Shown here: in pieces, positions 9,767-54,419 of the stretch
Numbering within the stretch: the first letter of the stretch is position 1
Layout: each line of letters opens with the position of its first letter
Assembly: GCA_035546035.1 (NCBI GenBank)
Contig: DASZXC010000008.1
Coordinates: 123,951-187,950 of the forward strand
Length of the DNA: 64,000 nt
Reading direction: 5' to 3'
From: Minisyncoccota bacterium
GTDB taxonomy: Bacteria > Patescibacteriota > Minisyncoccia > Phycocordibacterales > UBA6065
Notes under the pieces: generated by a model
Databases searched by the model: none
Told to the model about the DNA's origin: nothing
The model's input: the letters and a program-made list of their open reading frames with translations, nothing else
Position numbers and translations under genes: made by a program

Positions 9767-9784
9767 AGATACACCGCTCTCTCT

Positions 9785-11536: not shown

Positions 11537-11548
11537 ATCTCGAACAAA

Positions 11549-13693: not shown

Positions 13694-14195
13694 AGGATAT
13701 ACTCTCGTCGAGATGCTCGTCTATATCGCGCTCATCGCGCTCCTCTTCAGCGCGCTCGCGGCGGCGGTCTCACAGATATCGAAATCAGAGCGCCGCGCCC
13801 GCGCATTCCTCGACATAAACTCTGCGGCCATATCGGCATTCAGTCGCTTCTCGCGCGACATCCGCCGCGCTACGTCCATCGATATCGTGAACAGTACGCT
13901 CTCCGCGAGCTCAGGCAAGCTCGCTCTCATCATGAAGAATGCCGACGGCACGTCTTCGACGACGAAATTCTATCTGTCCGCCGACGGCATGGTCAAAGTC
14001 GAGCAGGACGGCGTATACGCCGGAAGCGTGACATCCGACAACATGCAGGTTTCGAACCTGACGTTCTGGAAATTCTCGCAGGCTTCGACCACGGCAGTGA
14101 GGATAGAGATGACGCTCGCTCCCGATGCTTCCACAACCGTGCCGGCGCTTAACTTCTACGGCACGTACGTCCTGCGAGGCTCATATCTTGAATAA
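13677..14195 (+). CDS. Prepilin-type (pseudo)pilin
   Basis: MSRTSKG/YTLVEMLVYIALIALLFSALAAAV, a canonical prepilin cleavage/methylation motif. Overlaps the previous gene by 17 nt. Confidence 0.75.
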   Translation: MSRTSKGYTLVEMLVYIALIALLFSALAAAVSQISKSERRARAFLDINSAAISAFSRFSRDIRRATSIDIVNSTLSASSGKLALIMKNADGTSSTTKFYLSADGMVKVEQDGVYAGSVTSDNMQVSNLTFWKFSQASTTAVRIEMTLAPDASTTVPALNFYGTYVLRGSYLE

Positions 14196-14207: not shown

Positions 14208-15938
14208 ATGAAAAAAATATACGAAACGCAGAAAGGATTCGCTCTCATGACCGCGCTCATATTTGTCCTCGTGGGCGGGGCGGTGATCGTGGGCGGCATC
14301 GCGGACGCCGTCTCGCGCGAGGTCAAAACGGTCCGCAACGAATCTAATTCCAAGCAGAGCTACTACACGTCTGAGTCGTCTCTCGAAGACTCCATATACA
14401 GGATCAAAAACAGCAAGCAGATCGGATCGGTCGAGACGCTCGCTATCGGCACGACGAAGGCAACTTCCACTATTGTTACGGGCTCTGATGGCGACAAGCA
14501 GATAGATTCGGCGAGCGACGTCGTCGGCACGAACCGCACGACCGAAGCGACGCTCGATATAACTGCGGGCGTGTCATTCCCATTCGTGCTCCAGGGCGGA
14601 GTAGGGGGCATAGACCTGAATAGCGGCTCGGTTACGGGCGATATCTATACGACCGGATCAATCCGCGGCTGCGGATTCTGCAGCATATCAGGCCTCGCCA
14701 CGGCAGCGGGCGGATCGTCGGCTGACTTGGACCAAGATAATTCATCGCCTTCGACGCCGACTAATTCCATAAGCTTCGCTTCGACGACGAATGCCCAGGA
14801 CTTTGCGCAGAGCTTCACTGTTTCGCAGACGCTTTCGATCGCCGATCTCCAGCTATATATAAAGAAAGTGGGCAGTCCTTCGAATGCGACCATCAGGATC
14901 ACGACGAATAGTTCCGGCTCGCCGTCGAATACGGTTCTTGCGAGCGGCACACTCTCCTCGTCCCTGGTTTCGACGTCGTATTCATGGGAAGACATCACCC
15001 TCACGGCCAATCCGATACTGACCATGGGCACGACCTATTGGATAGTCATAGACGCTAATAACAACTCCTCGAATTATTACGTCATCGCCGCGAATAATAA
15101 CGCCTATAGCTCCGGCTCGGCGAAGCTTGGTAAATACAACACGTCGTGGAGCAACGTCTCTCCGGCGACTCTCGATGCGTATTTCAGGATCTATATCGGC
15201 ACGAATCAGACGAGTATCGAAGGCATAGACAGCTATACCGGATTCACGGTCGGAAGCGCGTATGGATACAACGTATCGAACGTGACCTCGTCGGGCGTGC
15301 TCTACTGCCAGACAGGAAGCGAGAATAACAAGGCCTGTGACACGTCCCGCGGCGATCCTCCGATAGAGCAATATCCCGCGGCCGACTCGACCATCACGGG
15401 TTGGAAGGCTACTGCAGCCGCAGGCGGCACGTATTCGGGCAATCGAAGCGTCGATTGGTCGGGCGCGACCATCGGCCCGCAGAAGATAAGCGGCAACCTG
15501 ACGGTTTCCGGCGGCGGAACGCTCGTCGTATCTGGCATAATATGGGTCACGGGCGACGTGACGATAAACGGCGGCGCGACCGTCATGCCGCAGGGAACGG
15601 GCAAAAGCTTCGCCATCATCTCTGACGGCAAGATAAGCCTCAACGGCGGCGCGAGCATCACCGGAAGCTCTGGAAACGGCCACATACTCCTCGTTTCCAC
15701 CAATACGGCCGATCCGGCCATCACCATAAACGGCGGGGCGAATGATACGGTCGTTTTCGTGCCGTACGGCGGCCTCCTCATCACCGGCGGCGCCACCGCA
15801 AAAGCGGCTTCGGCAAAGCATATAACGACCGACGGCGGGGCGAACCTCATATATGACCCTTCTGTAGCGAGTTTGAACCTTACCGGCGGTACGACCGAAG
15901 GCTCTTTCGGCATAAAGACCTGGAAAGAAACCCAATAG
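14208..15938 (+). CDS. Large pilus-associated minor pilin/tip protein (PilX-like N-terminus plus beta-helix-like repeats)
   Basis: MKKIYETQKG/FALMTALIFVLVGGAVIVGG prepilin-like N-terminus. 576 aa rich in Gly/Thr/Ser with repeated ..NGGA../..TGG.. units. Last gene of the pil operon. Confidence 0.6.
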   Translation: MKKIYETQKGFALMTALIFVLVGGAVIVGGIADAVSREVKTVRNESNSKQSYYTSESSLEDSIYRIKNSKQIGSVETLAIGTTKATSTIVTGSDGDKQIDSASDVVGTNRTTEATLDITAGVSFPFVLQGGVGGIDLNSGSVTGDIYTTGSIRGCGFCSISGLATAAGGSSADLDQDNSSPSTPTNSISFASTTNAQDFAQSFTVSQTLSIADLQLYIKKVGSPSNATIRITTNSSGSPSNTVLASGTLSSSLVSTSYSWEDITLTANPILTMGTTYWIVIDANNNSSNYYVIAANNNAYSSGSAKLGKYNTSWSNVSPATLDAYFRIYIGTNQTSIEGIDSYTGFTVGSAYGYNVSNVTSSGVLYCQTGSENNKACDTSRGDPPIEQYPAADSTITGWKATAAAGGTYSGNRSVDWSGATIGPQKISGNLTVSGGGTLVVSGIIWVTGDVTINGGATVMPQGTGKSFAIISDGKISLNGGASITGSSGNGHILLVSTNTADPAITINGGANDTVVFVPYGGLLITGGATAKAASAKHITTDGGANLIYDPSVASLNLTGGTTEGSFGIKTWKETQ

Positions 15939-26250: not shown

Positions 26251-26667
26251 ATGCCAACCATTCACCAGCTGGTGAAGCGAAACCGACGTTCCCTCAAAAG
26301 GAAGTCGAAGTCCGTCGCCCTCACCAAGAGCTTCAACGTGCTCAAGAACAAGCCTCGTTATTTCTATTCGCCGTTCAAGCGCGGCGTGTGCATCAAAGTG
26401 ACGACCAAGACCCCGAAGAAGCCTAACTCGGCAATCCGAAAGATCGCCCGCGTTCGACTCTCTAACGGTATGGAAGTCACCGCATACGTCCCAGGCATGG
26501 GCCACAACCTCCAGGAGCACTCTGTGGTGCTTCTCAAGGGCGGTCGCGTCAAAGACGTCGGTCTTCGATACTCCGTCGTCCGCGGCGTCCTCGACTCCGC
26601 AGGCGTGGAGACTCGTCGCAAAGGTCGCAGCCAGTATGGCACCAAGAGGCCAAAGGCGGCTAAATAA
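26251..26667 (+). CDS. rpsL: 30S ribosomal protein S12
   Basis: [13 protein letters not shown]...[13 protein letters not shown].. conserved uS12. Confidence 0.95.
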
Positions 26668-26695: not shown

Positions 26696-27166
26696 ATGCG
26701 ACGCAAGATCAATATAAAGCGCGACCTCGCTCCAGACGTAAAATACCAGTCTGAAAAGGTCTCGAAGCTTATGAACTACATCATGTACGACGGCAAGAAG
26801 AACCAGGCCCGCACGAACGTGTACAAATGCTTCGAAATCATCAAAGAGAAGACCAAGTCTGAGAATCCTCTCGACGTCTTCGAGGCGGCTCTCAAGAATA
26901 CCGCTCCTAACGTAGAAGTACGCTCCCGACGCGTCGGCGGCGCCAACTATCAGGTCCCTGTCGAAGTCAGGCCGAAGCGCAAGGACGCTCTCTCTATCAA
27001 GTGGATCATAGACGCCGCTCGTTCGAAGAAGGGCGCGCCTATCTCCGCGAAGCTCGCTGACGAGATCATCGCCGCATCGAAGAACGAAGGCGAGGCGGTC
27101 AAGAAGCGTGAGAACACCCATAAGATGGCCGAAGCCAACAAGGCGTTCGCTCATTTCGCTTGGTAA
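26696..27166 (+). CDS. rpsG: 30S ribosomal protein S7
   Basis: uS7 conserved sequence. Position after rpsL. Confidence 0.95.
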   Translation: MRRKINIKRDLAPDVKYQSEKVSKLMNYIMYDGKKNQARTNVYKCFEIIKEKTKSENPLDVFEAALKNTAPNVEVRSRRVGGANYQVPVEVRPKRKDALSIKWIIDAARSKKGAPISAKLADEIIAASKNEGEAVKKRENTHKMAEANKAFAHFAW

Positions 27167-27198: not shown

Positions 27199-29343
27199 AT
27201 GAATCGAGACTACCCATTGGATAAGGTCCGGAACTTCGGCGTCATCGCCCACATCGATGCGGGTAAGACCACGACTTCGGAGCGAATCCTTTACTACACC
27301 GGCATGATCCACAAGATCGGCGAGGTGCACGAGGGCGAGACGACCACTGACTGGATGGAACAGGAGAGGGAGCGCGGCATCACTATTACGGCTGCCGCTA
27401 TCACCTGTTTCTGGAATCCGACGTACATGCCGAAGGGCGACAACAGCATGAAGCACCGCTTCAACGTCATCGACACTCCGGGACACATCGACTTCACCGT
27501 AGAGGTCAAGCGATCCCTCCGCGTGCTCGACGGCGCGGTCGTCGTATTCGACGGCGTGGCAGGCGTAGAGCCGCAGTCTGAGACTAACTGGCGCTATGCG
27601 GACGAGTCGAACGTCCCCCGCATCTGTTTCATCAACAAGCTCGACCGCATGGGCGCTTCGTTCGAAAAGTCGTTCGCATCGATCCTCGAACGCCTTAATA
27701 AGAACGGCGTGCGCATCCAGATCCCTGTCGGCGCGGAAGAGAACTTCAAGGGCGTCATAGACCTCGTTAAAATGAAGTTCTATACCTTCGAAGGCGAAAT
27801 GGGCATCAACGTCATCGAACAAGAAATCCCTGCGGACATGCAGGCAGAGGCAGACAAATACCGGGCTATCCTCATCGAAAAGATCGCGGAAACCGACGAC
27901 AGCCTCATGAACGCGTACCTCGAAGGAAAGCAGTTCGACATCTCGACCATCAAGGCCGGCCTCCGCAAGGCGACCCTCGCATGCAAGCTCTTCCCGGTCA
28001 TGACCGGTACGGCTCTCAAGAACAAGGGCGTCCAGCTCGTTCTCGACGCCGTCGTGGACTATCTCCCGTCGCCGCTCGACATTCCTGCGGTTAAGGGCCA
28101 TCACCCTGATACGGGCGAGGAGATCCTCCGTCACGCAGACGACAAGGAGCCTTTCGCGGCGCTCGCATTTAAGCTCCAGAACGATCCGTTCGTCGGCGCG
28201 CTCACGTTCTTCCGCGTGTACTCCGGTACCGTAGAAGCTGGTTCGTACATATATAACTCGACCACGGGCAAAAAAGAGCGCCTCTCGCGCATCGTGCGCC
28301 TTCAGGCGAACAAGCGCGAAGAAGTGACGAAAGTCTATGCAGGCGAGATCGCTGCAGCCGTAGGCTTAAAGGACGCTCTCACGTCTCATACGCTCTGCGA
28401 CGAGAACAATCCGATCGTCCTCGAAGCCATCAAGTTCATGGAACCGGTCATCTCGCTTCGCATCGAGCCTGCTACTAAGGCCGACCAGGAGAAGATGGGC
28501 ACGGCGCTCCGCAAGCTCGCGAACGAAGACCCTACGTTCCGCATCACGTCCAACGCTGAAACGGGCGAGACCCTCATCGCAGGCATGGGCGAGCTCCATC
28601 TCGAGATCATGGTAGACCGCATGAAGCGCGAATTCGGCGTCAATGCGAACGTCGGCAAGCCGCAGGTGGCATATCGCGAAACGATCCTCGGGACCGCGGA
28701 AGCAGAGCACAAGTACATCAAGCAATCGGGCGGTAAGGGTCAGTACGGCCACGTAAAGATCACTCTCAAGCCTCTCCCTGCATTGATAGAAGGCGAGAAG
28801 ATCCCGAAGAACGTCTCCCGATACGATGACTTCGAATTCATCGACTCGATCAAGGGCGGCGTCATCCCGGGCGAATTCATCCCTGCGGTAGAGAAAGGTG
28901 TTCACGAAGCTATGGATCGCGGTATCGTCGCGGGCTACAAGATGGTGAACGTATCGTGCGAATTGACCTACGGTTCGTACCACGACGTGGACTCTTCGGA
29001 AATCGCATATAAGATCGCCGCCTCGATGGCATTCCAGGAAGGCGCCAAGCGTGCGAAGCCCGTCATCCTCGAGCCGATCATGAAGCTCGAAGTCGTAGCC
29101 CCGGAGAAATTCATGGGCGACGTCACCGGCTCCATCATGGCGAAGCGCGGCATGATCGAAGGCACGAACCCGAAGGGCCAGGCCGTTTCGATCATCGCAA
29201 AGGTCCCGTTGGCCGAGATGTTCGGCTATACGACCGCTCTCCGCTCGATGACCTCGGGCCAGGGAAGCGCGCAGATGGAATTCGACCACTACGAGGTCGT
29301 TCCTCCGAACGTCGAGAAGACGATCGTCGAGGCAAGGAAATAG
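27199..29343 (+). CDS. fusA: Elongation factor G
   Basis: [18 protein letters not shown], and 714 aa with EF-G domains IV/V. Confidence 0.95.
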
Positions 29344-29363
29344 CCTTATTCGAATCTTGCAAG

Positions 29364-29392
29364 AAAAAGCCGCCTCGCGAGGCGGCTTTTTC
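29364..29392 (+). terminator. Intrinsic terminator after fusA
   Basis: aaaaagccgcctcgcgaggcggctttttc. Confidence 0.75.
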
Positions 29393-29444
29393 TTGACCTG
29401 TGGCGAAAGCAGGGTAGTATCGAGACGAAACTTGTACATCAATT

Positions 29445-30059
29445 ATGATTAAAATCGTTGAAAGAACAAAAAGGAATCCTCCGGAAACTGGGCTCCTTAT
29501 CCGCCGCGACGGCATATGGCGTCGCGTCATTCAATTGGACGACCGGCTCGTCGAGGAGCCTTACGAAGGAGTGATCTTTCCGGCGACCGAAAAAGAGATC
29601 GACGAGCTCCTCGCGCGAGGCGTTTCCCCGTATTGGCAGGCCTTCGGAGAGGTCTTCTATGGCGTTCCCCTTGATGACATCAGCGAGACTGCCGATGTCA
29701 GGAAGATCTTCTGGAATAGCAGTCTGGGCAGTCCGGCGTGGCAGAAAGGCTCCGTTCCGAGCCTTCCTCTTCTCGCCGCCGACGTCATCGTCTGCCGGTT
29801 CTTCGAGCATCCGTTCCCGCCGGGGACGCAGGTCCCGGTCAGCGAATTGCTTGCAGGCTTTACGCCGAGCGAAAAAGACCTCGATATCGCTGACGATCCT
29901 CATAAGACGAGCGATCTCCAGGTCTGGCTCACGGCCTGGGCCGCATACCGGAAAGTCACATTCAGCGAATCGCTTCCGATGCGCTCGCTCCTGCTCGACA
30001 AGCTCAAATGCGCGCTCATCGAGCTTGAAGCTCTGGCTAGGGCAGGGAGTTCGGACTAA
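29445..30059 (+). CDS. Hypothetical protein inserted between fusA and tuf
   Basis: 204-aa ORF, no recognisable motif. Own terminator upstream. Confidence 0.45.
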   Translation: MIKIVERTKRNPPETGLLIRRDGIWRRVIQLDDRLVEEPYEGVIFPATEKEIDELLARGVSPYWQAFGEVFYGVPLDDISETADVRKIFWNSSLGSPAWQKGSVPSLPLLAADVIVCRFFEHPFPPGTQVPVSELLAGFTPSEKDLDIADDPHKTSDLQVWLTAWAAYRKVTFSESLPMRSLLLDKLKCALIELEALARAGSSD

Positions 30060-30275: not shown

Positions 30276-31469
30276 ATGGCAGAATTCACACGAAGCAAGC
30301 CGCACGTTAACGTGGGTACCATCGGCCACGTTGACCACGGCAAGACTACGCTTACGACTGCGATCCTCGCGACGCAGGCTCGAGACGGTCTTGCAGTAGG
30401 CAAGGCATACGCAGATATCGCCAAGGGCGGTACCGTGCGCGATGCATCGAAGGTCGTTACCATCTCGCTCGCTCACGTCGAGTACGAGTCGAACGCGCGC
30501 CACTACGCTCACATCGACGCTCCTGGCCACGCCGACTATATCAAGAACATGATCACGGGTGCCGCTCAAATGGACGGCGCTATCCTCGTAGTGTCGGCGA
30601 TCGACGGCCCTATGCCGCAGACTCGAGAGCACATCCTCCTCGCAAAGCAGGTCGGCGTGCCAAGGATCGTGGTATTCCTCAACAAATGCGATGCCGTTGA
30701 AGACAAGGATCTCATCGACCTTGTCGAAGGCGAAGTCAGGGATCTCCTTACGAAATACGGCTATGACGGCGCTAACACTCCTGTTATCCGCGGATCGGCT
30801 CTCAAGGCTCTTGAAGCGAAGGACAATACGGACGAGTGGGCAATGAAGATCAAGGATCTCATGAATACGCTCGACACCTATATCCCTATGCCGGAGCGCG
30901 CTACGGACAAGCCATTCCTCATGCCTATCGAGGACATCTTCTCGATCGAAGGCCGCGGAACTGTGGTCACGGGCCGTATCGAGCGCGGTCAGGTAAAAGT
31001 CGGCGACACCGTCGAGATCGTCGGTATCAAGGACACCACGAACACGACGATCACTGGTATCGAAATGTTCAACAAGCAGCTCCAGTCGGGCATGGCGGGC
31101 GACAACGCCGGCGTTCTCCTCCGCGGCACCGCGAAGGACGCCGTCCATCGCGGTCAGGTCCTCGCAAAGCCGGGCTCGGTCACCCCTCACACCGAATTCG
31201 AGGCAGAGGTCCTCATCCTCAAGAAGGAAGAAGGTGGCCGCCACACTCCATTCTTCAACGGTTACAAGCCGCAGTTCTACGTTCGAACCACGGACGTTAC
31301 CGGCGAAGTCACCCTCAAGCCTGGCGTTGAAATGGTCATGCCTGGCGACACCGTCACGTTTTCGGTCAAGCTCCACGCTCCTATCGCCCTTGAGGCGCAG
31401 CAGCGCTTCGCTATCCGCGAAGGCGGCAAGACCGTAGGCGCAGGCGTCGTCACCAAGATCAACAAGTAA
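30276..31469 (+). CDS. tuf: Elongation factor Tu
   Basis: [22 protein letters not shown]. 397 aa. Confidence 0.97.
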
Positions 31470-31471
31470 TT

Positions 31472-31843
31472 ATGGCTACGGCTCCTAAAAAAGCAGCTCC
31501 GAAGAAGGCTCCGGCAAAAGCGAAAGCGGCAGACACCTCTCCTCGCTTGAGGATCCGCGTGCGAGCGTACGAGAACAAGATCCTCGACGCTTCGGTCAAG
31601 CAGATCATCGACACCGCTCTCCGTTACGACGTAACGGTTCTCGGCCCGGTCCCTCTTCCTACGGAGATCAAGAAATATACGGTGAACCGCTCGTCGTTCG
31701 TATACAAGAATGCGCGAGAACAGTTCGAGATGCGAGTCCACAAGCGCCTCATCGATATCTTGAATCCGAACGCGAAGATCATCGAAGCCCTTACGAATAT
31801 GTCGCTCCCATCGGGCGTGAACATCGACGTCAAGATGATCTAA
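31472..31843 (+). CDS. rpsJ: 30S ribosomal protein S10 (with about 22-aa Lys/Ala-rich N-terminal extension)
   Basis: ..RLRIRVRAYENKILDASVKQIIDTA.. core of uS10. Preceded by MATAPKKAAPKKAPAKAKAA. Confidence 0.92.
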   Translation: MATAPKKAAPKKAPAKAKAADTSPRLRIRVRAYENKILDASVKQIIDTALRYDVTVLGPVPLPTEIKKYTVNRSSFVYKNAREQFEMRVHKRLIDILNPNAKIIEALTNMSLPSGVNIDVKMI

Positions 31844-31844
31844 A

Positions 31845-31910
31845 GCAGAAACCTGCAATATAAAACCACCCCGCCGAGGCCTGGGGTGGTTTTATATTGC
31901 AGGTTTCTGC
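31845..31910. terminator. 66-nt perfect hairpin (28-bp stem) between convergent rpsJ and the pilin gene; bidirectional terminator candidate
   Basis: gcagaaacctgcaatataaaaccacccc-gccgaggcct-ggggtggttttatattgcaggtttctgc. Stem abuts the rpsJ stop (31841-43) and overlaps the pilin stop (31910-12). Confidence 0.7.
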
Positions 31911-32356
31911 TAAGGACAGACCGACGACGTGGCAGGACCCGACGAACCCTTCGATGCGCCCATAGAGTCTACGCACCAATAAGTCGAGGTCGAGACGAGC
32001 TGCGCCGATACCGCCCATGCCGTCTGGGTTCCGGCAGGGGATGCGTAGCATGCCACTGCAGGGGACGTAGATGCCAATGCCGCTATCTGGTCGCTCATCT
32101 TCGGGTCGGCGACGAATATCGAGCCAGAGGTCGAGCATGACGAGACCGTGCCTGCCGCCGATCCGTAATTGCCCGCGCCGTCGAAATAGAGCTCCGCTTG
32201 AGGGCGAAGGGAGACGAGCTGCGCCTTTACGGCCGCGTCGCTGCCCTTGTTTCGCGCCGAATTCAACGATGCGAGCACTACCGACGACAATATGCCGATG
32301 ATAGCGATCACAACGAGGAGTTCGATGAGGGTAAAGCCTTTCTTCAAATTCTTCAT
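31910..32356 (-). CDS. pilA: Type IV major pilin (PilA-like prepilin)
   Basis: Start at internal Met (complement 32354-32356): MKNLKKG/FTLIELLVVIAIIGILSSVVLASL is a class III signal with Glu+5. 148 aa Ser/Ala-rich with C-terminal Cys pair (..WCVD...SVCP). Confidence 0.8.
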   Translation of the reverse strand: MKNLKKGFTLIELLVVIAIIGILSSVVLASLNSARNKGSDAAVKAQLVSLRPQAELYFDGAGNYGSAAGTVSSCSTSGSIFVADPKMSDQIAALASTSPAVACYASPAGTQTAWAVSAQLVSTSTYWCVDSMGASKGSSGPATSSVCP

Positions 32357-32560
32357 ATCGATCAAAAAACTAATAATGCTGTGTTTTTCAGCTCGAGGAT
32401 AAGTATAGCAGGCGTTTTCGGCCCTCATTTGCTTTATTTTCCCCAGTGGGGTAGTATGACCCCCACAAGAGAAGCACGGCTTCTTTTTTGATTTCAGTTT
32501 TATTTATTTGGGATATTAAGAGAGCCTACGGAGCCCCCAGCTCCGCGCTCGCGCAAACCA

Positions 32561-33193
32561 ATGAAGAAATTCATCCTTGGCACTAAAAAGGCCATGACGC
32601 AGGTCTTCGACGCAGAGGGCCGCGCCTTCCCGGCGACGGTCCTTTCGGCAGGCCCTGTTACGGTCACGCAGGTAAAGACGGTAGACAACGACGGATATTC
32701 GGCTTTCCAGGTCGGCTTCGGCGACCAGAAGGAGTCTCGCCTCGGTAAGGCTCTTGTCGGACATATGAAGGACAAAGGCGCCGGCAATTTCCGACACCTC
32801 GGCGAATTCTGCGTTTCCGCGGAAGAGGCCGCTAAATTCAAGGTCGGCGACAAGATCGACCTTTCCATGTTCGCCGTAGGCGATACGGTTTCGGTTCGCT
32901 CGGAATCGAAGGGCAAGGGCTTCCAGGGTGCCGTCAAGCGCCACCACTTCAAGGGCGGTTCGCGAACCCACGGCCAGAAGCACTCGGAGCGCGAAGTCGG
33001 TTCGATCAACGGCAAAGGCCGCCACAGCTCGGGCCGCGTCAACAAGGGCAAGCGCATGCCGGGACGCATGGGCGGCGACATGGTCACCGTCAAGAATCTC
33101 AAGGTCCTCCAGGTCCGCCCGGAGACCAATGAACTCGTTATCCACGGCTCTCTTCCCGGTCGAAAGGGAGTTCTCGTATCTATCGTCGCGTAA
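32561..33193 (+). CDS. rplC: 50S ribosomal protein L3
   Basis: uL3 conserved sequence (..KGKGFQG..KRHHF.GG..THG). Confidence 0.95.
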   Translation: MKKFILGTKKAMTQVFDAEGRAFPATVLSAGPVTVTQVKTVDNDGYSAFQVGFGDQKESRLGKALVGHMKDKGAGNFRHLGEFCVSAEEAAKFKVGDKIDLSMFAVGDTVSVRSESKGKGFQGAVKRHHFKGGSRTHGQKHSEREVGSINGKGRHSSGRVNKGKRMPGRMGGDMVTVKNLKVLQVRPETNELVIHGSLPGRKGVLVSIVA

Positions 33194-33210: not shown

Positions 33211-33951
33211 ATGAAAAACGAAACTAAAGCAGTAAAGAAGGCGGCAGCGCCAAAGGCGAAGGCTCCAAAGGCAGCAAAAGCTTCTGTCGGCCTCGAGGCG
33301 ACGATCTATAACACCAAGGGCGCATCGGCAGGCACGGTCAAGCTCCCTGAAAAGGTCTTCGGCCTTCCATGGAATGCTGACCTTGTCCACCAGGTCATGC
33401 ACTCGATGATGTCGACCGCTCGACAGCCTATTGCTCATACCAAGACCCGCGGGGAAGTGCGCGGCGGCGGCAAGAAGCCATGGCGCCAGAAGGGCACCGG
33501 TCGCGCTCGACACGGCTCTACCCGATCGCCTCTTTGGGTAGGCGGCGGCGTCGCTCACGGCCCTCGCAACGACAAGAACTATGATCGCAAGGTCAATAAG
33601 GGCGCGAAGGCGAAGGCTTTCCTCACGCTCCTTTCCAAGAAGTACCGCGACGGCGAGGTCATCTTCGTCGAATCGCTCTCGTTCTCGGCTCCGAAGACCG
33701 CTGAGGCTATCTCGGCTCTTGCCGGCCTCGCCAAGAATAAGGATTTCAGCAAGCTCGTCACGAAGCCTAAGAACGCGGCATTCATCGCTCTTTCGAAGAA
33801 AGACGTCAACGTCGAGAAGTCCTTCAGGAACGTCCGCGCAGTCTCCGTAGACGAAGTGCGAAACGTCAACCTCCTCGATGTCCTCACCAACAAATTCCTC
33901 GTCATCGAGAATCCTACGGAGTCGCTCAAGGTTATCGAAAATAAGATCTAA
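33211..33951 (+). CDS. rplD: 50S ribosomal protein L4
   Basis: ..[18 protein letters not shown].. uL4 motif. Lys/Ala-rich N-terminal extension. Confidence 0.93.
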
Positions 33952-33955
33952 TACC

Positions 33956-34408
33956 ATGTCGCTTTTCAACACACAAAGGAAGAAGGCCGGCAATGCGACC
34001 GCAGGCGAGGACAAGGCAAAGAAGACCAAGGCCGTCGCCGTAGTTAAGCCTGCCAAGGAGGATAAAAAGGAAGCAAAAGCAAAGAAGGAGTCCAAGGACG
34101 AAAAGCGCGCTGCAGCGGCTGCGGGCGTCGTCTTCGACAAGAAGTCGGTCATCATCAAACCCCGCGTCACGGAAAAGGCAGGCATCCTCTCGCAGTCGGG
34201 CGTATACACGTTCGATGTGAAGGTAGGCGCGAACGTCCGCCAGATCGCTGACGCTATCGAAGCCGCATACAAGGTCACGCCGGTAAAGGTCTCGACCGCT
34301 GCGGTAAAGGGCAAGGCCATGTTCGCTCGCGGCCGAAAGGGTTCGACTTCGGCAGGCAAGAAGGCCTACGTCTATCTCGAGAAGGGACAGACCATCGAAT
34401 TCATATAA
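33956..34408 (+). CDS. rplW: 50S ribosomal protein L23 (with long Lys/Ala-rich N-terminal extension)
   Basis: Start at ATG 33956 (MSLFN...), in frame within track ORF 33878..34408 and right after the rplD stop. C-terminal uL23 core ..IKPRVTEKA....YTFDV...ANVRQIADAIEAAYKV. Confidence 0.9.
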   Translation: MSLFNTQRKKAGNATAGEDKAKKTKAVAVVKPAKEDKKEAKAKKESKDEKRAAAAAGVVFDKKSVIIKPRVTEKAGILSQSGVYTFDVKVGANVRQIADAIEAAYKVTPVKVSTAAVKGKAMFARGRKGSTSAGKKAYVYLEKGQTIEFI

Positions 34409-34428: not shown

Positions 34429-35283
34429 ATGAAATCATATCGACCAACATCTCCAGGCAGGCGCCAGATGCAGACGATCAACTTCAAGGAGTACATCACC
34501 CAGAAGGATCCTGTTAAGGCTCTCACCTATGGCCGAAAGCGCGACGTAGGACGAAACGCGGCAGGACGCGTTACCGTGCGCCACAAGGGCGGCGGCCATA
34601 AGCGCCTCTATCGCGACATCTCTTTCATGTATGACAAGAAAGACATTCCTGCGACCATCAAGTCCATTGAATACGATCCGAACCGATCGGGCTTCATCGG
34701 CCTCGCGGCATATCGCGACGGCGAGCGACGCTACGTCCTCCTTCCGAAGGGCGTAAAGCCAGGCACGACCATCGTGACCGGCGTCACCGCTCCTCTCCAG
34801 CCAGGCAACGCTCTTCCTTTGAAGAAGATCCCTGTAGGCACCTTCATCTACAACATCGAGCTTAAGCCGAACTCCGGCGCAAAGGCGGCTCGTGCAGCAG
34901 GCATATTCGCCCAGGTCATCGGTAACGACGCAGGCTATACCATGATCAAGATGCCTTCGACCGAAGTCCGAAAGGTCCACGAAGAGGCATTCGCTACCGT
35001 CGGCCAGGTATCGAACGACGAGCACTGGCTCGTGAACTCGGGTAAGGCAGGCCGCTCGCGATGGCTGGGTATCCGCCCGACGGTCCGTGGTACCGCGCAG
35101 AACCCGGTAGACCATCCATACGGCGGCGGTGAAGGCCGACAGGGCCGCGGTCTCCGAAGGCTCAAGACCCGATGGGGCAAGCCGGCCGGCAAGGGCCAGA
35201 AGACCCGTACGCCGAAGAAGTACTCGAACGTCTTCATCGTTTCGAGGCGCAAGGTTGGAAAGGATAGGAACAATATTCAGTAA
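34429..35283 (+). CDS. rplB: 50S ribosomal protein L2
   Basis: uL2 conserved sequence (..RHKGGGHKR.YR..., ..GGGEGR..). Confidence 0.95.
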   Translation: MKSYRPTSPGRRQMQTINFKEYITQKDPVKALTYGRKRDVGRNAAGRVTVRHKGGGHKRLYRDISFMYDKKDIPATIKSIEYDPNRSGFIGLAAYRDGERRYVLLPKGVKPGTTIVTGVTAPLQPGNALPLKKIPVGTFIYNIELKPNSGAKAARAAGIFAQVIGNDAGYTMIKMPSTEVRKVHEEAFATVGQVSNDEHWLVNSGKAGRSRWLGIRPTVRGTAQNPVDHPYGGGEGRQGRGLRRLKTRWGKPAGKGQKTRTPKKYSNVFIVSRRKVGKDRNNIQ

Positions 35284-35287
35284 TGAA

Positions 35288-35320
35288 ACAAAAAAACGGC
35301 CGGATGGCCGTTTTTTTGTT
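35288..35320 (+). terminator. Strong intrinsic terminator immediately after rplB, at the start of the AT-rich insertion
   Basis: aaaaaaacggccggatggccgtttttttg. Confidence 0.8.
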
Positions 35321-36231
35321 TCTATGCTTGAATGGATTAAACTTCTTTAACTTATGACTGCTACTCCGTTTGAAATAAAACTTATCGGCAAGATGGCTCT
35401 CGCGAATGAAAAGATTAAGAAGATTCCTCGAAAACTCCATGCGGCCACGTGTCCCATCGAAGGACCGTCGGGAGGAGAGAAATGTAATTGTGGGGCTCAA
35501 GATTTCAATTCGAACCTTGATGGGATCGTCAACGATCTTAAGGTCGATTAATCTCTTTGCAAATCTGGCCACTCCATTGGTCGGGTTTTTTTGAGGAAAT
35601 CGTTGTTTAATAGCGAAAAGTCTTTTACCTATGTCATCCATAAGCCCAGACGTCAGCGATGCTCCGCCCATGGACGATTCTATGCGGCAGTTCATCGCGA
35701 AGATTCCAAAAATCCTTCGAAATGCATCGAATTGGTAAACAAGATCAGCAAAGAGCATGGAGGAGCAGAGGGATTAAGTCCCTCTATTCACAAGAGAGCT
35801 AAGGAGCTCTCTTTTTGTTTGCTTTCTTAGGCTTTAGCCTGGATGATAGAATGTTCCTTATAGATCAATGTTAATTAAACATGATTAAAGTAGAATTTGA
35901 TAAGGGGAGGGGATTTAATCCGCACGTTTCCGATTTCTTAGATGCTCATAAGGAAATGACGTTACTTGGACTTGCATGGGCTTTGTTTTGGAGATTTTCA
36001 GTCGCATATGGCGCTATAGGCATTATTTTTGCAACTTTGTCTAACATTTTAGGCTGGTAATGCAAAATATTTGACTTATTTCCGTCCTCTGATAGGATAT
36101 CCACCACTAGCTTCGGAATGGGCACTAGACGGTAGAAACTAGGTAAAAGCCTAGTTTTTATCTTCCACCAGTTGTTTCTAGCAACTATAGCCCAGACGCC
36201 CGAGCTGTAATCCATTGTTTCAACACAGCAA

Positions 36232-36576
36232 ATGACGCGATCCCTTTCAAAAGGACTGAACGTAGATCCAAGGCTTCTCAAGAAGATCGAGGGCAAGAAA
36301 CCCCAGGAAACCGGCGTTATTAAGACGTGGCTTCGCGCATGCCACATTTCGCCTGAAATGGTGGGTTTCAAGTTCGGCGTCCATAACGGCAAAGACTTCG
36401 TCGAGGTCCTCGTGTCGGAAGACATGGTAGGTCACCGCCTCGGCGAATTTTCTTTGACCCGCAAGTTCACCAAGCACGGCGGCAAGATGCAGAAGGAGCT
36501 TGAAATGAAGAAGAAGGAGTCTGAAATGGCGGCTGCATCGGCAGCTAAGGCCGCTACGACCGAGAAAAAGGCCTAA
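36232..36576 (+). CDS. rpsS: 30S ribosomal protein S19
   Basis: [20 protein letters not shown]....IKTW.R...[36 protein letters not shown]. conserved uS19. Lys/Ala-rich C-terminal tail. Confidence 0.92.
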
Positions 36577-46818: not shown

Positions 46819-47211
46819 ATGTTCTGGAACCGATTCCTCTTTCCGATGCTCGCCGCGCTGGTCGCCGTTGCCGGCCTGAACTGGATAGGCGGGGCCGAAG
46901 GCTATTATTTTACGACCGCATGGTACGATTGGCCCGTACATTTTTTGGGCGGCGTCTGGTCCGGGCTCTTTCTGCTCTGGATATTCAATCTCCCGCATAT
47001 GGGTCGCTTCAAGCGGTTCGCTTCGCTCGAAGCCGTATTGGGCCTCGTATTCCTCATCGGCCTCGCATGGGAGGGATATGAGCTTTTCTTCGGCCTGACG
47101 AGCCTCTACAAAGCGGGATACGGCTTCGATACGTTCCATGACCTCGTGAACGACGTTCTCGGCGCGGCCGCGGCGTTCTGCCTTACCCGCCGAACTATCG
47201 CTCGCGCATAA
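46819..47211 (+). CDS. Small integral membrane protein (about 4 TM), hypothetical
   Basis: 130 aa, hydrophobic helices, aromatic-rich (WYDWPVHFLGGVWSGLFLLWIF). Confidence 0.45.
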   Translation: MFWNRFLFPMLAALVAVAGLNWIGGAEGYYFTTAWYDWPVHFLGGVWSGLFLLWIFNLPHMGRFKRFASLEAVLGLVFLIGLAWEGYELFFGLTSLYKAGYGFDTFHDLVNDVLGAAAAFCLTRRTIARA

Positions 47212-48590
47212 TGAAAGGATTCACGCTCACAGCATGTGCGGCGGTGGGGAATGCCACAGGGGCGAACTTCCTCGTAGAGACCCCGGAGACGTCGTTCCTC
47301 GTCGACTGCGGCCTGGTCCAGGGATCGCAGTTCGCTCAAGATGAAAATCGAGAACCCTTTCCTTTCGATATTCCCAAGGTATCGTTCCTCCTCGTGACCC
47401 ATGCGCATATGGATCATGTCGGCAGGATACCGAAGCTGGTCCGCGAAGGATTCAGCGGGACCATATATTCGACGCCGGAAACGAAAGAGCTTGCCGCGCT
47501 CATGCTCGACGACGCGGTAGGGCTCTTGGACAGGGAAGCGAAAGAAAAGAAGATCGCGCCTCTGTACGAGCGCTCCGATATCGCCCGCGCCATGGGCCTC
47601 TGGAAGGCGATCGAATACCATGCGCAGACGGACATAACGCCGGATATCTCTGCGCTCTTCAAGGACGCCGGGCACGTCCTCGGCTCCTCTATCATCGAAG
47701 TGACGCTCCGCAATGCCGCCGGCGACAAGGGCGTTACGATCGCGTTCACAGGCGACCTCGGCAATTCGCCGACGCCGCTCCTGCGCGACACGGAATATGT
47801 CACGAACGCCGATTACTTGGTCATGGAATCGGTCTACGGCGACAGGAACCACGAGCCGAAGGATGTCCGCGACCAAAGGCTCAAAGACATACTCGGCGCA
47901 GGCCTCCGGCGCGGCGGGACGGTGGTCATTCCCGCGTTCTCGCTGGAGCGGACGCAGGTCATTCTGTACGAGATCAATAACCTGATCGAATCAGGAGCTA
48001 TTCCGCGCGCTCCGGTATATCTTGATTCTCCTTTGGCCATAAAAGTGACGGACGTATACCGCAGGCATACGGCGGATTTCAATAAGAAGATACAGGGCGC
48101 TATCGAAGGAGGCGACGATATATTCGATTTTCCCGGCCTGCGCATCATCGGGAATCCGCAGGAATCCGCGGCGATCCACGGTATGAAAGGGGCCAAGATC
48201 GTCATCGCCGGTTCCGGTATGTCGGTCGGCGGCCGCGTCCTGTCGCATGAAGCGTTCTATCTTGGAGACCCGGACGCTACGATACTGCTCGTCGGCTATC
48301 AGGTGCCGGGCAGCCTCGGCAGGAAGATAGAGGAGCGCGCGTCGAAGCTCGTCATCAATGGCCAGCCGGTGCGCGTGCGCGCTCGTATAGAGAAGATCAG
48401 TGGCTATTCTTCGCACAAAGATTCGAACGGCATGGTCGAATTCGTGTCGCATGCGTTGCCGAGATTGAAGAGGGCGTTCATCGCCATGGGAGAGACTAAA
48501 TCTTCCGCCTTCCTGGCCCAGCGCCTTCGCGATGAGATCGGGGCGAATGCGATAGTGGCGGAGAAGAATAAGTCGTACGAACTAAAATAA
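47211..48590 (+). CDS. Beta-CASP family metallo-beta-lactamase ribonuclease (RNase J/CPSF-like)
   Basis: MBL motif LVTHAHMDHVGRIP (HxHxDH), downstream ..DAGH.LGSS.. and ..H..H, then beta-CASP and C-terminal RNA-metabolising MBL segments. 459 aa. Confidence 0.75.
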   Translation: MKGFTLTACAAVGNATGANFLVETPETSFLVDCGLVQGSQFAQDENREPFPFDIPKVSFLLVTHAHMDHVGRIPKLVREGFSGTIYSTPETKELAALMLDDAVGLLDREAKEKKIAPLYERSDIARAMGLWKAIEYHAQTDITPDISALFKDAGHVLGSSIIEVTLRNAAGDKGVTIAFTGDLGNSPTPLLRDTEYVTNADYLVMESVYGDRNHEPKDVRDQRLKDILGAGLRRGGTVVIPAFSLERTQVILYEINNLIESGAIPRAPVYLDSPLAIKVTDVYRRHTADFNKKIQGAIEGGDDIFDFPGLRIIGNPQESAAIHGMKGAKIVIAGSGMSVGGRVLSHEAFYLGDPDATILLVGYQVPGSLGRKIEERASKLVINGQPVRVRARIEKISGYSSHKDSNGMVEFVSHALPRLKRAFIAMGETKSSAFLAQRLRDEIGANAIVAEKNKSYELK

Positions 48591-48654
48591 ACTCCGAACG
48601 CATATAAAAACCACCCCAGGGCTTGGCGGGGTGGTTTTTATATGCGTTCGGAGT
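48591..48654. terminator. 64-nt perfect hairpin (27-bp stem) between convergent beta-CASP gene and rplT; sister of the 31845-31910 element
   Basis: actccgaacgcatataaaaaccacccc-agggcttggc-ggggtggtttttatatgcgttcggagt. Stem starts right after the stop at 48588-90 and ends at the rplT stop (48654-56). Confidence 0.7.
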
Positions 48655-48998
48655 TACTTTACCTTCGCAACGATCCTGTCGAACGTCTCCGGGTTGTTGT
48701 GAGCGAGGTCGGCGAGGATCTTGCGGTCGATCTGGATGTTCGCCTTCTTCATGGCGCCCATGAATTTCGAGTAGGAGAGGCTCTTTGCGTCGAGAGCCGC
48801 GTTGATCTTGATTATATTGAGGGAGCGGCGGTCAGATTTCTTGTCGCGGCGATGGGCGAACGCGTATGCGCCCGCGTGCGAGATAGCCTCGTATGCCGCG
48901 CGCTCGTTCGTAGAACGGCGGAAGCGATAGCCCTTTACCTGCTTGAGGACGTTGCGGCGGGTCTTAAGCGCATTTACTCCTTTTTTGACGCGTGCCAT
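48654..48998 (-). CDS. rplT: 50S ribosomal protein L20
   Basis: MARVKKGVNALKTRRNVLKQVKGYRFRRS.. conserved bL20. Confidence 0.92.
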   Translation of the reverse strand: MARVKKGVNALKTRRNVLKQVKGYRFRRSTNERAAYEAISHAGAYAFAHRRDKKSDRRSLNIIKINAALDAKSLSYSKFMGAMKKANIQIDRKILADLAHNNPETFDRIVAKVK

Positions 48999-53297: not shown

Positions 53298-53300
53298 AAA

Positions 53301-53347
53301 ACCATGATATTCTAGTTGCAAATGATTTGCAACTAGAATATCATGGT
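53301..53347. promoter_or_regulatory. 47-bp palindromic operator (23-bp perfect arms) in the zur-ZIP divergent intergenic region
   Basis: accatgatattctagttgcaaat-g-atttgcaactagaatatcatggt. Core TTGCAAATGATTTGCAA is Fur/Zur-box-like. It produces the artefactual shared MQLEYHGF N-termini of both flanking track ORFs. Confidence 0.7.
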
Positions 53348-53410
53348 TTTCGAGACGATATCTCGCCTCAAGTCCTCGATTTTATCTATCTAATATTTGC
53401 TCGTCCTATC

Positions 53411-54414: not shown

Positions 54415-54419
54415 ATTTG

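What the first reader, a model, noticed from the sequence alone, without database searches (positions are those of the whole stretch)
31845..32560. Major type IV pilin gene embedded antisense inside the S10 ribosomal operon (between rpsJ and rplC)
In bacteria rpsJ is normally followed directly by rplC. Here a 148-aa PilA-like prepilin gene (KKG/FTLIELLVVIAIIGIL) is inserted on the opposite strand between them. It is bounded on the rpsJ side by a 28-bp-stem perfect hairpin and on the rplC side by a 130-nt divergent promoter region. The location is separate from the pilus operon 20 kb away. This places the most highly expressed pilus subunit in the most highly transcribed chromosomal region, but it forces rplC onwards to use a new promoter.
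Basis: seen in the sequence. Interest (0 to 1): 0.55.

Follow-up and report, generated by a model that had tools for sequence, protein, structure and literature searches.

The report
Pilin gene between rpsJ and rplC
A real, intact type IV pilin gene lies backwards between two ribosomal protein genes of an ultrasmall (Paceibacterota) bacterium, but in this lineage the ribosomal cluster already stops and restarts transcription at that point, and related species carry other, unrelated genes there.

Summary
A 148-aa prepilin gene (31910-32356, minus strand) lies between rpsJ (31472-31843) and rplC (32561-33193). A perfect 29-bp (not 28-bp) palindrome fills the rpsJ/pilin spacer. The pilin-rplC spacer is 204 nt, not 130.

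It is not a misassembly. The same layout is found on 12 contigs carrying a 90%-identical pilin, and a 68%-identical pilin also lies antisense downstream of rpsJ in a third lineage.

- The palindrome is a bidirectional intrinsic terminator.
- The rplC promoter and a roughly 100-nt structured leader are conserved in three sister species that have no pilin there. One has an empty 300-nt spacer; two carry unrelated cargo. The operon break therefore most likely predates the pilin.
- 13 of 72 related species have at least 300 nt between rpsJ and rplC, with varied non-pilin contents.
- The gene is a paralogue. A 62%-identical pilin listed on a contig of the same length (380,287 nt), hence probably the same genome, heads a canonical pilin/PilD cluster.
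- "Major pilin" and "placed for high expression" remain unsupported. The gene is antisense and has its own promoter-like motif.

Verdict: a lineage-specific gene capture at a shifted operon boundary. Modest interest.

The parts
30276..31469 (+). tuf (EF-Tu). Its stop codon lies 2 nt before the rpsJ start, so tuf and rpsJ are read as one transcription unit.
   Evidence: ORF list. Pfam annotation of the orthologue in L001. 99.7% identical to the L001 tuf. The single-unit reading is inferred from the 2-nt spacing.
31472..31843 (+). rpsJ (ribosomal protein S10), with a roughly 20-aa Lys/Ala-rich N-terminal extension
   Evidence: Pfam Ribosomal_S10, E = 4e-30.
31844..31911 (.). Perfect 29-bp palindrome with a 10-nt loop. 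The inner part (CCACCCC, loop, GGGGTGG, flanked by an A-tract and a T-tract) reads as an intrinsic terminator on both strands. It serves the convergent rpsJ and pilin genes and overlaps the pilin stop codon by 2 nt.
   Evidence: Relatives L001, L005, L007 and L008 carry a different bidirectional terminator at the same position, AAGAAAAAGCCCCGCGAAAGCGGGGCTTTTTCTT. The core, including the loop, is shared with the hairpin at 48578-48667.
31910..32356 (-). Type IV prepilin gene, 148 aa. Leader MKNLKKG, then F+1 and E+5. Four conserved Cys residues (74, 103, 128, 147).
32402..32410 (-). Candidate pilin promoter: extended -10 element TGCTATACT, implying a 5' UTR of about 39 nt
   Evidence: Read from the sequence. 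Conserved in L001. The generic promoter scan did not flag it because there is no good -35. Inferred, not shown.
32429..32457 (+). Candidate rplC promoter: -35 TTGCTT (32429-32434), 17-nt spacer, -10 TAGTAT (32452-32457). It is divergent from the pilin promoter and 18 bp away from it.
   Evidence: The hexamers and the 17-nt spacing are conserved in the window, L001, L007, L008 and L009 while the spacer sequence varies. It matches the E. coli consensus at only 7 of 12 positions and was not flagged. Inferred from phylogenetic footprinting.
32467..32489 (+). Leader hairpin 1: AAGAGAAGC-ACG-GCTTCTTTT followed by a T-run. It is terminator-like and lies at the very 5' end of the predicted rplC transcript.
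   Evidence: The stem GAAGC/GCTTC and the T-run are conserved in all five relatives. Its function (attenuator or 5' stabiliser) is not shown.
32520..32552 (+). Leader hairpin 2: GAGAGCC..GGAGCC-loop-GCTCC..GCTCGC, immediately 5' of the rplC start codon
   Evidence: RNAalifold gives 11 pairs, 4 of them with compensatory double changes among 5 sequences. Covariance model R1 hits only this clade. No Rfam family matches.
32561..33193 (+). rplC (L3), the first gene of the rplC-rplD-rplW-rplB unit
   Evidence: Pfam Ribosomal_L3; ORF map.

Best explanation
In this small clade of Candidatus Paceibacterota the str/S10 ribosomal gene cluster is not one long operon. tuf and rpsJ are fused into one unit that ends at an intrinsic terminator just after rpsJ. 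rplC-rplD-rplW-rplB start again from their own promoter and a roughly 100-nt structured leader.

The DNA between that terminator and that promoter is an inter-operon spacer. Insertions there cause no polar damage, and different lineages have filled it with different genes.

In the window's lineage the cargo is a functional type IV pilin paralogue:
- It is transcribed on the opposite strand from its own extended -10 promoter, back-to-back with the rplC promoter.
- It ends at a bidirectional terminator shared with rpsJ.
- Its product would be cleaved by PilD after Gly7 and assembled by the PilB/PilC machinery encoded 20 kb away.

What is shown and what is inferred:
- Shown: gene identities, the pilin fold, purifying selection, conservation of the layout, and conservation of the promoter/leader in relatives that lack the pilin.
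- Inferred: the actual transcription start and stop sites, the order of events, and whether this is the major pilin.
For: - Functional gene. dN/dS = 0.10 against the 90%-identical orthologue, with dS about 0.7.
- Real arrangement. 12 contigs carry the same rpsJ / antisense pilin / rplC layout. L005, whose pilin is 68% identical, also has it antisense downstream of rpsJ.
- The break predates the pilin.
  - The -35/17/-10 motif, hairpin 1 and hairpin 2 are conserved in L007, L008 and L009, which carry unrelated cargo (L007, L009) or none (L008).
  - The rpsJ terminator is homologous in L001, L005, L007 and L008.
  - tuf identity orders the pilin-bearing lineages (99.7%, 94.7%) as closer to the window than the pilin-less ones (93.1-91.1%).
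- Insertion hotspot. 13 of 72 species have at least 300 nt between rpsJ and rplC. The contents include HlyIII, pirin and orphan secreted or membrane proteins, and none is a pilin.
- Terminator function rather than sequence is conserved. The spacer is only 48% identical to L001, yet both hold an A-tract/GC-stem/T-tract hairpin.
- Paralogue. P0005 (62% identical) is listed on a contig of the same 380,287-nt length as the window's pilin. It heads a pilin-pilin-pilin-PilD-pilin-pilin cluster.
- Normal pilin context. None of 80 metagenomic pilin homologue loci is next to S10, L3, L4 or EF-Tu.
- Same design at a second joint. rplB is followed by a terminator, variable cargo, and a conserved promoter and leader before rpsS.
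- Known pattern. Small insertions invading inter-operon spacers of this cluster are documented in other phyla (PMC8046335).
Against: - No transcript data exist, so promoters, terminators and the leader are all predictions. The proposed rplC promoter matches the E. coli consensus at only 7 of 12 positions, and the generic scan found no promoter.
- Hairpin 1 sits about 2 nt from the predicted transcript start and looks like a terminator. That is awkward for a productive promoter unless it acts as an attenuator or stabiliser.
- The order of events rests on parsimony over six lineages ranked by tuf identity, not on a proper tree. If L007-L009 form one sister clade, ancestral presence of the pilin followed by a single replacement costs only one step more.
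- In L005 the contig ends inside the pilin, so rplC adjacency is unconfirmed there.
- That P0005 belongs to the same genome is inferred from equal contig lengths. Its neighbourhood was read on a different Logan contig that carries the identical protein.
Confidence: 0.72

Rival explanations
1. The pilin inserted into an intact rpsJ-rplC operon, split it and forced a new rplC promoter to evolve. The site was selected because it places the most abundant pilus subunit in the most heavily transcribed part of the chromosome.
For: - In most relatives rpsJ and rplC are adjacent: 33 of 72 have less than 60 nt between them.
- The pilin is retained under purifying selection across genomes with dS of 0.4-0.7.
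- Pilins and pilus genes are reported as highly expressed in cultured Paceibacteria (PMC10936435).
Against: - The promoter, the leader and the rpsJ terminator are present in sister species without the pilin, including one with an empty spacer.
- Other Paceibacterota show an rpsJ terminator with an rplC-proximal promoter-like motif and non-pilin cargo or none.
- The gene is antisense and terminator-insulated, so it cannot use ribosomal promoters.
- A paralogue heads the canonical pilin cluster, so "the major pilin" is unproven.
Confidence: 0.12
2. Assembly artefact: a chimeric join or a mis-placed pilin fragment in a metagenome-assembled genome.
For: The window comes from a MAG. Long perfect palindromes can confuse assemblers.
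Against: - The same gene order is seen on 12 contigs carrying the 90%-identical pilin, from one NCBI MAG and several separate Logan run assemblies; 4 loci were inspected.
- It is seen again in a further MAG and a further Logan contig for the 68%-identical lineage.
- GC content matches the flanks, 0.56-0.57.
- The flanking non-coding DNA is conserved in register.
Confidence: 0.02
3. A recently acquired mobile or foreign cassette: the pilin gene arrived by horizontal transfer on a small mobile element, and the long palindrome is its end.
For: - Cargo at this site differs between close species, which implies frequent turnover.
- The window's palindrome replaced the ancestral terminator. Its 34-nt core, loop included, recurs at 48578-48667, as expected for a copied palindromic element.
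Against: - No integrase or transposase, and no flanking direct repeats.
- No compositional shift.
- All close homologues are Paceibacterota pilins, and the nearest non-orthologues sit in the lineage's own pilD clusters.
- The gene has been inherited vertically across at least three diverged lineages.
Confidence: 0.08
4. Regulatory coupling: the back-to-back rplC and pilin promoters, 18 bp apart, and the shared terminator were selected to tie pilus production to ribosome synthesis, through supercoiling or shared upstream sites.
For: - The two promoter-like motifs are tightly divergent.
- The arrangement is conserved with 81-89% identity in the spacer while synonymous sites have diverged by 0.4-0.7.
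- Sister species also carry pilin genes at other joints of the same cluster: L007 365-877 and 10552-11019, L009 97-702.
Against: - Purely inferential.
- The spacer conservation is strongest in the part shared with species that lack the pilin.
- Pilin genes are very numerous in these genomes, so co-location may be chance.
- The other 80 pilin loci show no such association.
Confidence: 0.06

Closest known systems
Type IVa major pilins (PilA/PilE; e.g. Thermus thermophilus PilA4, PDB 6xxd; Pseudomonas aeruginosa PilA; Neisseria PilE)
   Same: - Short basic leader ending in Gly, then Phe+1 and Glu+5.
- Hydrophobic N-terminal helix of about 50 residues.
- Small alpha-beta head with a four-strand antiparallel sheet.
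- A conserved C-terminal Cys pair.
- A size of about 140 residues.
   Different: - Sequence similarity to solved pilins is confined to the N-terminal helix, and Foldseek found nothing significant.
- There is a second conserved Cys pair (74/103).
- The genomic site is unusual: pilin genes normally sit alone or in pilin/PilD clusters, as this gene's own paralogue does.
- Whether it is the major subunit is unknown.
Small gene insertions into inter-operon spacers of the str-S10-spc-alpha cluster (e.g. bfd-bfr between tufA and rpsJ in enterobacteria; Brandis 2021, PMC8046335)
   Same: A few unrelated genes invade the spacer between two concatenated translation operons. The operons themselves stay intact, and different lineages hold different cargo.
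   Different: - Here the boundary lies after rpsJ rather than before it, because tuf and rpsJ are fused with a 2-nt gap.
- The insertion therefore appears to be inside the textbook S10 operon.
- The cargo is antisense.
Bidirectional intrinsic terminators between convergent genes
   Same: A GC-rich stem flanked by an A-tract on one side and a T-tract on the other, placed exactly between two convergent stop codons. Equivalent hairpins follow fusA, rplB and the RNase/rplT pair in this window.
   Different: The stem is extended by a further 16 perfectly paired bases beyond the T-tract. That part would not be present in a terminated RNA. The reason for the extension is unexplained.
Ribosomal-protein leader RNAs, e.g. 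the L4-responsive S10 leader of E. coli (attenuator hairpin plus U-run)
   Same: - A structured 5' leader in front of the operon that encodes L3 and L4.
- It contains a terminator-like hairpin with a U-run and a second hairpin next to the start codon.
- It is conserved, with compensatory changes.
   Different: - No sequence or structure match to any Rfam family.
- It lies upstream of rplC, not rpsJ.
- It is restricted to five sampled lineages.
- No ligand is known, and the terminator-like hairpin begins about 2 nt from the predicted start.

Membership tests
Type IV pilin / prepilin (class III signal peptide proteins) | Short, positively charged leader ending in Gly(-1), cleavable by a prepilin peptidase | tested here: met
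   The leader reads MKNLKKG|F. Pfam PF07963, E = 1.6e-9, and TIGR02532, E = 8.6e-10, both above their curated cut-offs. Cleavage itself cannot be tested here.
Type IV pilin / prepilin (class III signal peptide proteins) | Phe (or Met) at +1, Glu at +5, and a hydrophobic alpha1-N segment of about 20 residues | tested here: met
   F8, E12 and the LLVVIAIIGIL segment are invariant or nearly invariant in 67 homologues.
Type IV pilin / prepilin (class III signal peptide proteins) | Lollipop fold: a long N-terminal helix packed on a four-strand antiparallel sheet | tested here: met
Type IV pilin / prepilin (class III signal peptide proteins) | C-terminal disulfide-bonded region | tested here: inconclusive
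   Cys128 and Cys147 are invariant and Cys74 and Cys103 nearly invariant. Disulfide formation cannot be tested.
Type IV pilin / prepilin (class III signal peptide proteins) | Cognate machinery in the genome (PilB ATPase, PilC platform, PilD peptidase) | tested here: met
   PilB and PilC are at 9755-12763. PilD is in the paralogue's cluster, L167. That locus was read on a Logan contig carrying the identical protein, and P0005 is listed on a 380,287-nt contig, the same length as the window's.
Major (fibre-forming) pilin, as opposed to a minor pilin | It is the predominant subunit of the assembled filament and the most expressed pilin | not testable with these tools
   Its size and fold fit a major pilin. 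A 62%-identical paralogue at the head of the pilD cluster is an equally good candidate. There are no expression or structural data.
Classical S10 operon (rpsJ-rplC-rplD-rplW-rplB-rpsS-..., one transcription unit) | rpsJ directly followed by rplC and co-transcribed with it | tested here: not met
   A 717-nt gap holds a bidirectional terminator, an antisense gene and a promoter-like motif. A second break lies between rplB and rpsS.
Classical S10 operon (rpsJ-rplC-rplD-rplW-rplB-rpsS-..., one transcription unit) | Promoter and regulatory leader upstream of rpsJ | tested here: not met
   The tuf stop codon and the rpsJ start codon are 2 nt apart. The conserved leader lies upstream of rplC instead.
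Known ribosomal-protein leader RNA families (Rfam) | Match to a curated covariance model | tested here: not met
   No hit at gathering score anywhere in the window, and none at E <= 10 in 31800-32620 other than spurious long-hairpin matches.
Known ribosomal-protein leader RNA families (Rfam) | Conserved secondary structure supported by covariation; binding by an encoded ribosomal protein | tested here: inconclusive
   4 of 11 pairs in hairpin 2 show compensatory double changes, but only 5 distinct sequences are available. Protein binding cannot be tested.
Mobile genetic element / genomic island | Recombinase gene, terminal repeats or target-site duplication, and a compositional anomaly | tested here: not met
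   No such ORF, no flanking direct repeats, and GC equal to the flanks.
Bidirectional intrinsic terminator | GC-rich stem-loop flanked by an A-tract and a T-tract, between convergent genes | tested here: met
   A functionally equivalent but different hairpin sits at the same place in relatives. Termination activity itself cannot be tested.

The most novel reading that the evidence does not exclude
This Paceibacterota clade may have re-partitioned the universal str/S10 cluster into short units: tuf-rpsJ, rplC-rplB, and rpsS onwards. Each unit would restart at a promoter followed by a previously undescribed leader RNA that carries a terminator-like hairpin. These leaders would be new ribosomal-protein autoregulatory attenuators. 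The insulated joints would act as landing pads that repeatedly capture surface-protein genes, pilins included, whose expression could then be coupled to the neighbouring ribosomal promoter.
Probability: 0.3. Interest if true: 0.5.

Novelty: new variant of a known kind. Interest (0 to 1): 0.3.

Why it matters
- Marker-gene use. The rpsJ-to-rpsQ block is used as a syntenic marker for placing uncultured bacteria on the tree of life and is usually treated as one operon. Here a lineage has moved the operon boundary to after rpsJ and tolerates changing cargo at that joint and at rplB|rpsS. Pipelines that assume contiguity should take note, and so should accounts of how strongly operon structure is constrained in reduced genomes.
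- Testable RNA elements. The conserved rplC and rpsS leaders are candidates for ribosomal-protein regulatory RNAs in a phylum where none are known.
- Pilus biology. The practical message is modest: this genome has at least two PilA-like candidates, and the one in the ribosomal cluster should not be assumed to be the major pilin.

Tried and rejected
- Rfam, at gathering score on the whole window and at E <= 10 on 31800-32620. It returned only tRNA, tmRNA and spurious miRNA-like matches to the long hairpin.
- Generic sigma-70 promoter scan: 0 sites. The promoter candidates therefore rest on conservation alone.
- Exact-sequence look-up of the window's own pilin found no record, so the source contig could not be re-fetched.
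- Leader-peptide idea. An 11-codon ORF (ATG at 32456) overlaps hairpin 1 and is kept in L001, but it is absent or out of frame in L008 and L009. Rejected (read from the alignment).
- Relic-of-pilin idea for the empty L008 spacer. blastn and tblastx found homology only at the terminator and promoter ends.
- Shared promoter with the paralogue. The upstream regions of the pilD-cluster pilins (L167, L006) resemble each other but not the window's pilin upstream region.
- Terminator travelling with pilin genes. A hairpin with the same AAACCACCCC/GGGGTGGTTT arms follows a pilin homologue in L092, but its loop and flanks differ. Judged to be convergence.
- Covariance model of leader hairpin 2. It found no members beyond the five seed lineages among 83 sources, the window plus 82 fetched loci.
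- Enrichment of pilins at cluster joints. The data are too few and the background density of pilin genes in these genomes is unknown, so no claim is made.
Full report
**1. What is in the sequence**

The window is from a Candidatus Paceibacterota (Patescibacteria/CPR) metagenome-assembled genome. The pilin protein is 100% identical to HVU06570.1, recorded on a 380,287-nt contig.

Gene order on the plus strand:
- rpsL 26251-26667
- rpsG 26696-27166
- fusA 27199-29343
- an orphan 204-aa ORF, 29445-30059
- tuf 30276-31469
- rpsJ 31472-31843
- rplC 32561-33193
- rplD 33211-33951
- rplW, ending at 34408
- rplB 34429-35283
- a roughly 950-nt low-GC gap
- rpsS 36232-36576, followed by the rest of the S10/spc genes

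Between rpsJ and rplC, on the minus strand, lies an ORF whose 148-aa form (31910-32356) begins MKNLKKG|FTLIELLVVIAIIGIL. Three details need correcting:
- The hairpin stem is 29 bp and perfect, with arms 31844-31872 and 31883-31911. The fold is -57.2 kcal/mol, z = -13.
- The pilin-rplC spacer is 204 nt, not about 130.
- The pilin stop codon overlaps the last two bases of the palindrome.

**2. The gene is a real, functional type IV pilin**

- It passes the Pfam N_methyl and NCBIfam GFxxxE models.
- It has thousands of Paceibacterota homologues.
- G7, F8, E12, the hydrophobic helix and Cys128/Cys147 are invariant in 67 relatives. Cys74 and Cys103 are nearly invariant.
- An AlphaFold2 model (pLDDT 90.8) has a 52-residue N-terminal helix and a four-strand sheet.
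- Foldseek was uninformative. Sequence similarity to solved pilins is limited to the N-terminal helix.
- Against its 90%-identical orthologue, dN/dS is 0.10 with dS of about 0.7. The gene is under purifying selection.
- PilB, PilC and three minor pilins lie at 9755-14195.

**3. It is not a misassembly, and it is conserved only narrowly**

- The 90%-identical pilin (P0002) is carried by 12 contigs, from one NCBI MAG and several separate Logan run assemblies. The loci inspected (L001-L004) all show rpsJ, antisense pilin, rplC.
- A 68%-identical pilin (P0003, locus L005) also lies antisense downstream of rpsJ. There, two extra small genes, each with its own promoter-like motif and terminator, sit between it and rpsJ.
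- The next most similar pilins (62-63% identical) head canonical pilin-pilin-pilin-PilD-pilin clusters. One of them, P0005, is listed on a contig of the same 380,287-nt length as the window's pilin, so it is probably in the same genome.
- None of 80 metagenomic loci holding the closest remaining homologues is next to S10, L3, L4 or EF-Tu. Most are in tandem with a second pilin.

**4. The rpsJ|rplC junction across relatives**

A scan of species-representative genomes with S10 returned 80 Paceibacterota loci. In the 72 loci where both genes could be placed, the spacer lengths were:

| Spacer between rpsJ and rplC | Species |
|---|---|
| under 60 nt | 33 |
| 60-299 nt | 26 |
| 300 nt or more | 13 |

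The long spacers hold unrelated contents and no pilin:
- an antisense haemolysin-III-family gene plus an orphan (L007)
- two orphan proteins with hydrophobic N-termini (L009)
- pirin (L067)
- several orphan membrane or secreted proteins

Nine of the 13 long spacers contain a long A-tract/stem/T-tract hairpin, in most cases within about 60 nt of rpsJ. The junction is therefore a recurrent insertion site, and the pilin is one cargo among many.

**5. The operon break is older than the pilin**

By tuf identity the closest genomes rank as follows:

| Locus | tuf identity to window | Pilin at rpsJ-rplC site |
|---|---|---|
| L001 | 99.7% | yes |
| L005 | 94.7% | yes |
| L009 | 93.1% | no |
| L007 | 91.4% | no |
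| L008 | 91.1% | no |
| next best | 82% | no |

About 130 nt upstream of rplC is conserved in the window, L001, L007, L008 and L009, whatever the cargo. This region contains:
- A -35/-10 pair. It reads TTGCTT, 17 nt, TAGTAT in the window (32429-32457). The hexamers and the spacing are conserved while the spacer sequence varies.
- A short hairpin followed by a T-run (32467-32489).
- A second hairpin abutting the start codon (32520-52). Four of its 11 pairs show compensatory double changes, for example GGAGC/GCTCC, GGGTC/GACCC and GGATTCA/TGAATTC.

L008 has only a 300-nt spacer with no ORF and no pilin relic. It still has the rpsJ terminator and this promoter/leader.

The rpsJ terminator AAGAAAAAGCCCCGCGAAAGCGGGGCTTTTTCTT is homologous in L001, L005, L007 and L008.

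The simplest history has three steps:
1. The ancestor of this clade already ended a tuf-rpsJ unit after rpsJ and restarted at rplC.
2. The spacer then accumulated different cargo in different lineages.
3. The pilin was captured once, on the branch leading to the window, L001 and L005.

The inference is by parsimony on identity ranks, not on a formal tree, and I give it about 0.7.

**6. How the locus most likely works (inferred; no transcript data)**

- Plus-strand transcription of tuf-rpsJ would end at the inner part of the palindrome, CCACCCC-loop-GGGGTGG-TTTTATATT.
- The same element read on the minus strand ends the pilin transcript.
- In L001 the spacer is only 48% identical but again holds an A-tract/GC-stem/T-tract hairpin. 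The function is conserved rather than the sequence.
- The pilin would be driven by an extended -10 element, TGCTATACT (32410 to 32402, minus strand). This element is conserved in L001 and lies 18 bp from the rplC -35 hexamer, so the two promoters are back-to-back.
- The generic promoter scan flagged neither promoter. The rplC candidate matches the E. coli consensus at only 7 of 12 positions and rests on phylogenetic footprinting.
- Hairpin 1 starts about 2 nt from the predicted rplC transcript start. It could be an attenuator or a 5' stabiliser, and I cannot tell which.
- No Rfam family matches. A covariance model of hairpin 2 finds only this clade.

**7. The same design elsewhere in the cluster**

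- rplB is followed by a bidirectional terminator (35287-35322) and about 900 nt of low-GC DNA with only small orphan ORFs.
- In the 90%-related genomes the same gap holds AAA_15 and DUF3226 genes.
- The 170 nt upstream of rpsS are nevertheless conserved between the two. They hold a TTGACT..TGaTAGGAT promoter-like motif and a hairpin with a T-run at 36137-36159.
- fusA is also followed by a perfect palindromic terminator (29360-29395) and an orphan gene that L001 lacks and L005 has.
- The cluster in this clade is therefore a chain of short, insulated units with variable joints.
- This fits the pattern described for other phyla, in which small insertions invade inter-operon spacers of the str-S10-spc cluster (PMC8046335). 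Here the boundary lies after rpsJ rather than before it.

**8. What remains odd**

- The outer 16 bp of the palindrome lie beyond the T-tract, so they would be absent from terminated RNAs. Their perfect pairing is unexplained.
- The 34-nt core, loop included, recurs in a 40-nt-arm hairpin between the convergent beta-CASP RNase gene and rplT, at 48578-48667. This suggests copying of a palindromic terminator within the genome.
- Sister species carry other pilin genes at other joints of the same cluster:
  - L007 365-877, divergent from fusA
  - L009 97-702, upstream of fusA
  - a frameshifted pilin after the rplB terminator in L007
- With so few genomes, and pilin genes so abundant in these organisms, I cannot say whether that association is more than chance.

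**9. Verdict**

The gene, its location and its boundaries are right. The claims that it broke an operon, that it is the major pilin and that it was placed for high expression are not supported.
- The finding is a lineage-specific variant of a known phenomenon: cargo captured at an operon boundary of the translation gene cluster, with the boundary shifted to after rpsJ.
- The most interesting by-product is the pair of conserved, undescribed leaders in front of rplC and rpsS.
- Literature searches found no description of a pilin gene in this position.

Noticed in passing
window 35284-36231: A second break in the same ribosomal cluster. rplB is followed by the bidirectional terminator AAACAAAAAAACGGCCGGATGGCCGTTTTTTTGTTT (35287-35322), then about 900 nt of low-GC (0.47) DNA with only small orphan ORFs before rpsS. 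In the 90%-related genomes (L002-L004) the same gap holds AAA_15 and DUF3226 genes.
   Followed up: partly
window 36071-36231: A conserved promoter-like motif (TTGACT..TGaTAGGAT) and leader lie upstream of rpsS, with a terminator-like hairpin AAACTAGG-TAAAAG-CCTAGTTTTT at 36137-36159. It is about 90% identical in L002 although the upstream cargo differs. The design is the same as the rplC leader, so this is a possible undescribed ribosomal-protein leader.
   Followed up: partly
window 48578-48667: A hairpin with 40-nt arms (88% complementary) lies between the convergent beta-CASP RNase gene (47211-48590) and rplT (48654-48998, minus strand). Its core and loop are nearly identical to the rpsJ/pilin palindrome, and its arms reach into both coding regions. 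It may be a copied palindromic terminator.
   Followed up: partly
window 29360-30059: A perfect 18+18-nt palindromic terminator follows fusA directly. After it comes an orphan 204-aa ORF (29445-30059, no Pfam or NCBIfam hit) before tuf. The ORF is absent in L001 and present as a 206-aa ORF in L005, so this is another variable joint.
   Followed up: partly
L007 365-877 (-), L007 10552-11019 (+), L009 97-702 (+): Sister species carry other pilin genes at other joints of the same translation cluster. A 170-aa pilin is divergent from fusA in L007, and a 48%-similar one lies upstream of fusA in L009. A pilin with a frameshift between its leader and mature parts follows the rplB terminator in L007. 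Whether this is enrichment or chance is unresolved.
   Followed up: partly
L034, L041, L042, L057, L062, L065, L077 (upstream of rplC); L015, L017, L020, L021, L023, L072: Other Paceibacterota have their own conserved motifs just 5' of rplC. One group has ...GGGACCAATAGA.. preceded by a TGTATAnT -10-like box. A second group has GCAATGGTTACCG(T)TATG. These suggest several independent rplC leaders in the phylum.
   Followed up: no
window 53298-53350: A perfect palindrome with 26-nt arms and a 1-nt loop (AAAACCATGATATTCTAGTTGCAAAT / ATTTGCAACTAGAATATCATGGTTTT) lies at the junction of two divergent ORFs. It may be an operator.
   Followed up: no
window 57797-57872 and 54417-54818: A tRNA-Ile with anticodon TAT (UAU), which is uncommon in bacteria, and a tmRNA gene with tag AKSVKSPFATNTFSFAYAAA.
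   Followed up: no
window 31472-31540 and 33878-34100: Lys/Ala-rich N-terminal extensions on S10 (about 20 aa) and apparently on L23. The longest rplW ORF is 176 aa, against 146 aa called in relatives.
   Followed up: no
window 31992-32015 and 32211-32234: A 24-nt direct repeat (88% identical) inside the pilin gene. It corresponds to the two AQLVS peptide motifs, at residues 45-49 and 117-121.
   Followed up: no
window 14208-15938: A 576-aa protein encoded after the minor pilins. It has a choice-of-anchor R domain and a weak GspK-like N-terminus, and may be a large tip or minor pilin.
   Followed up: no
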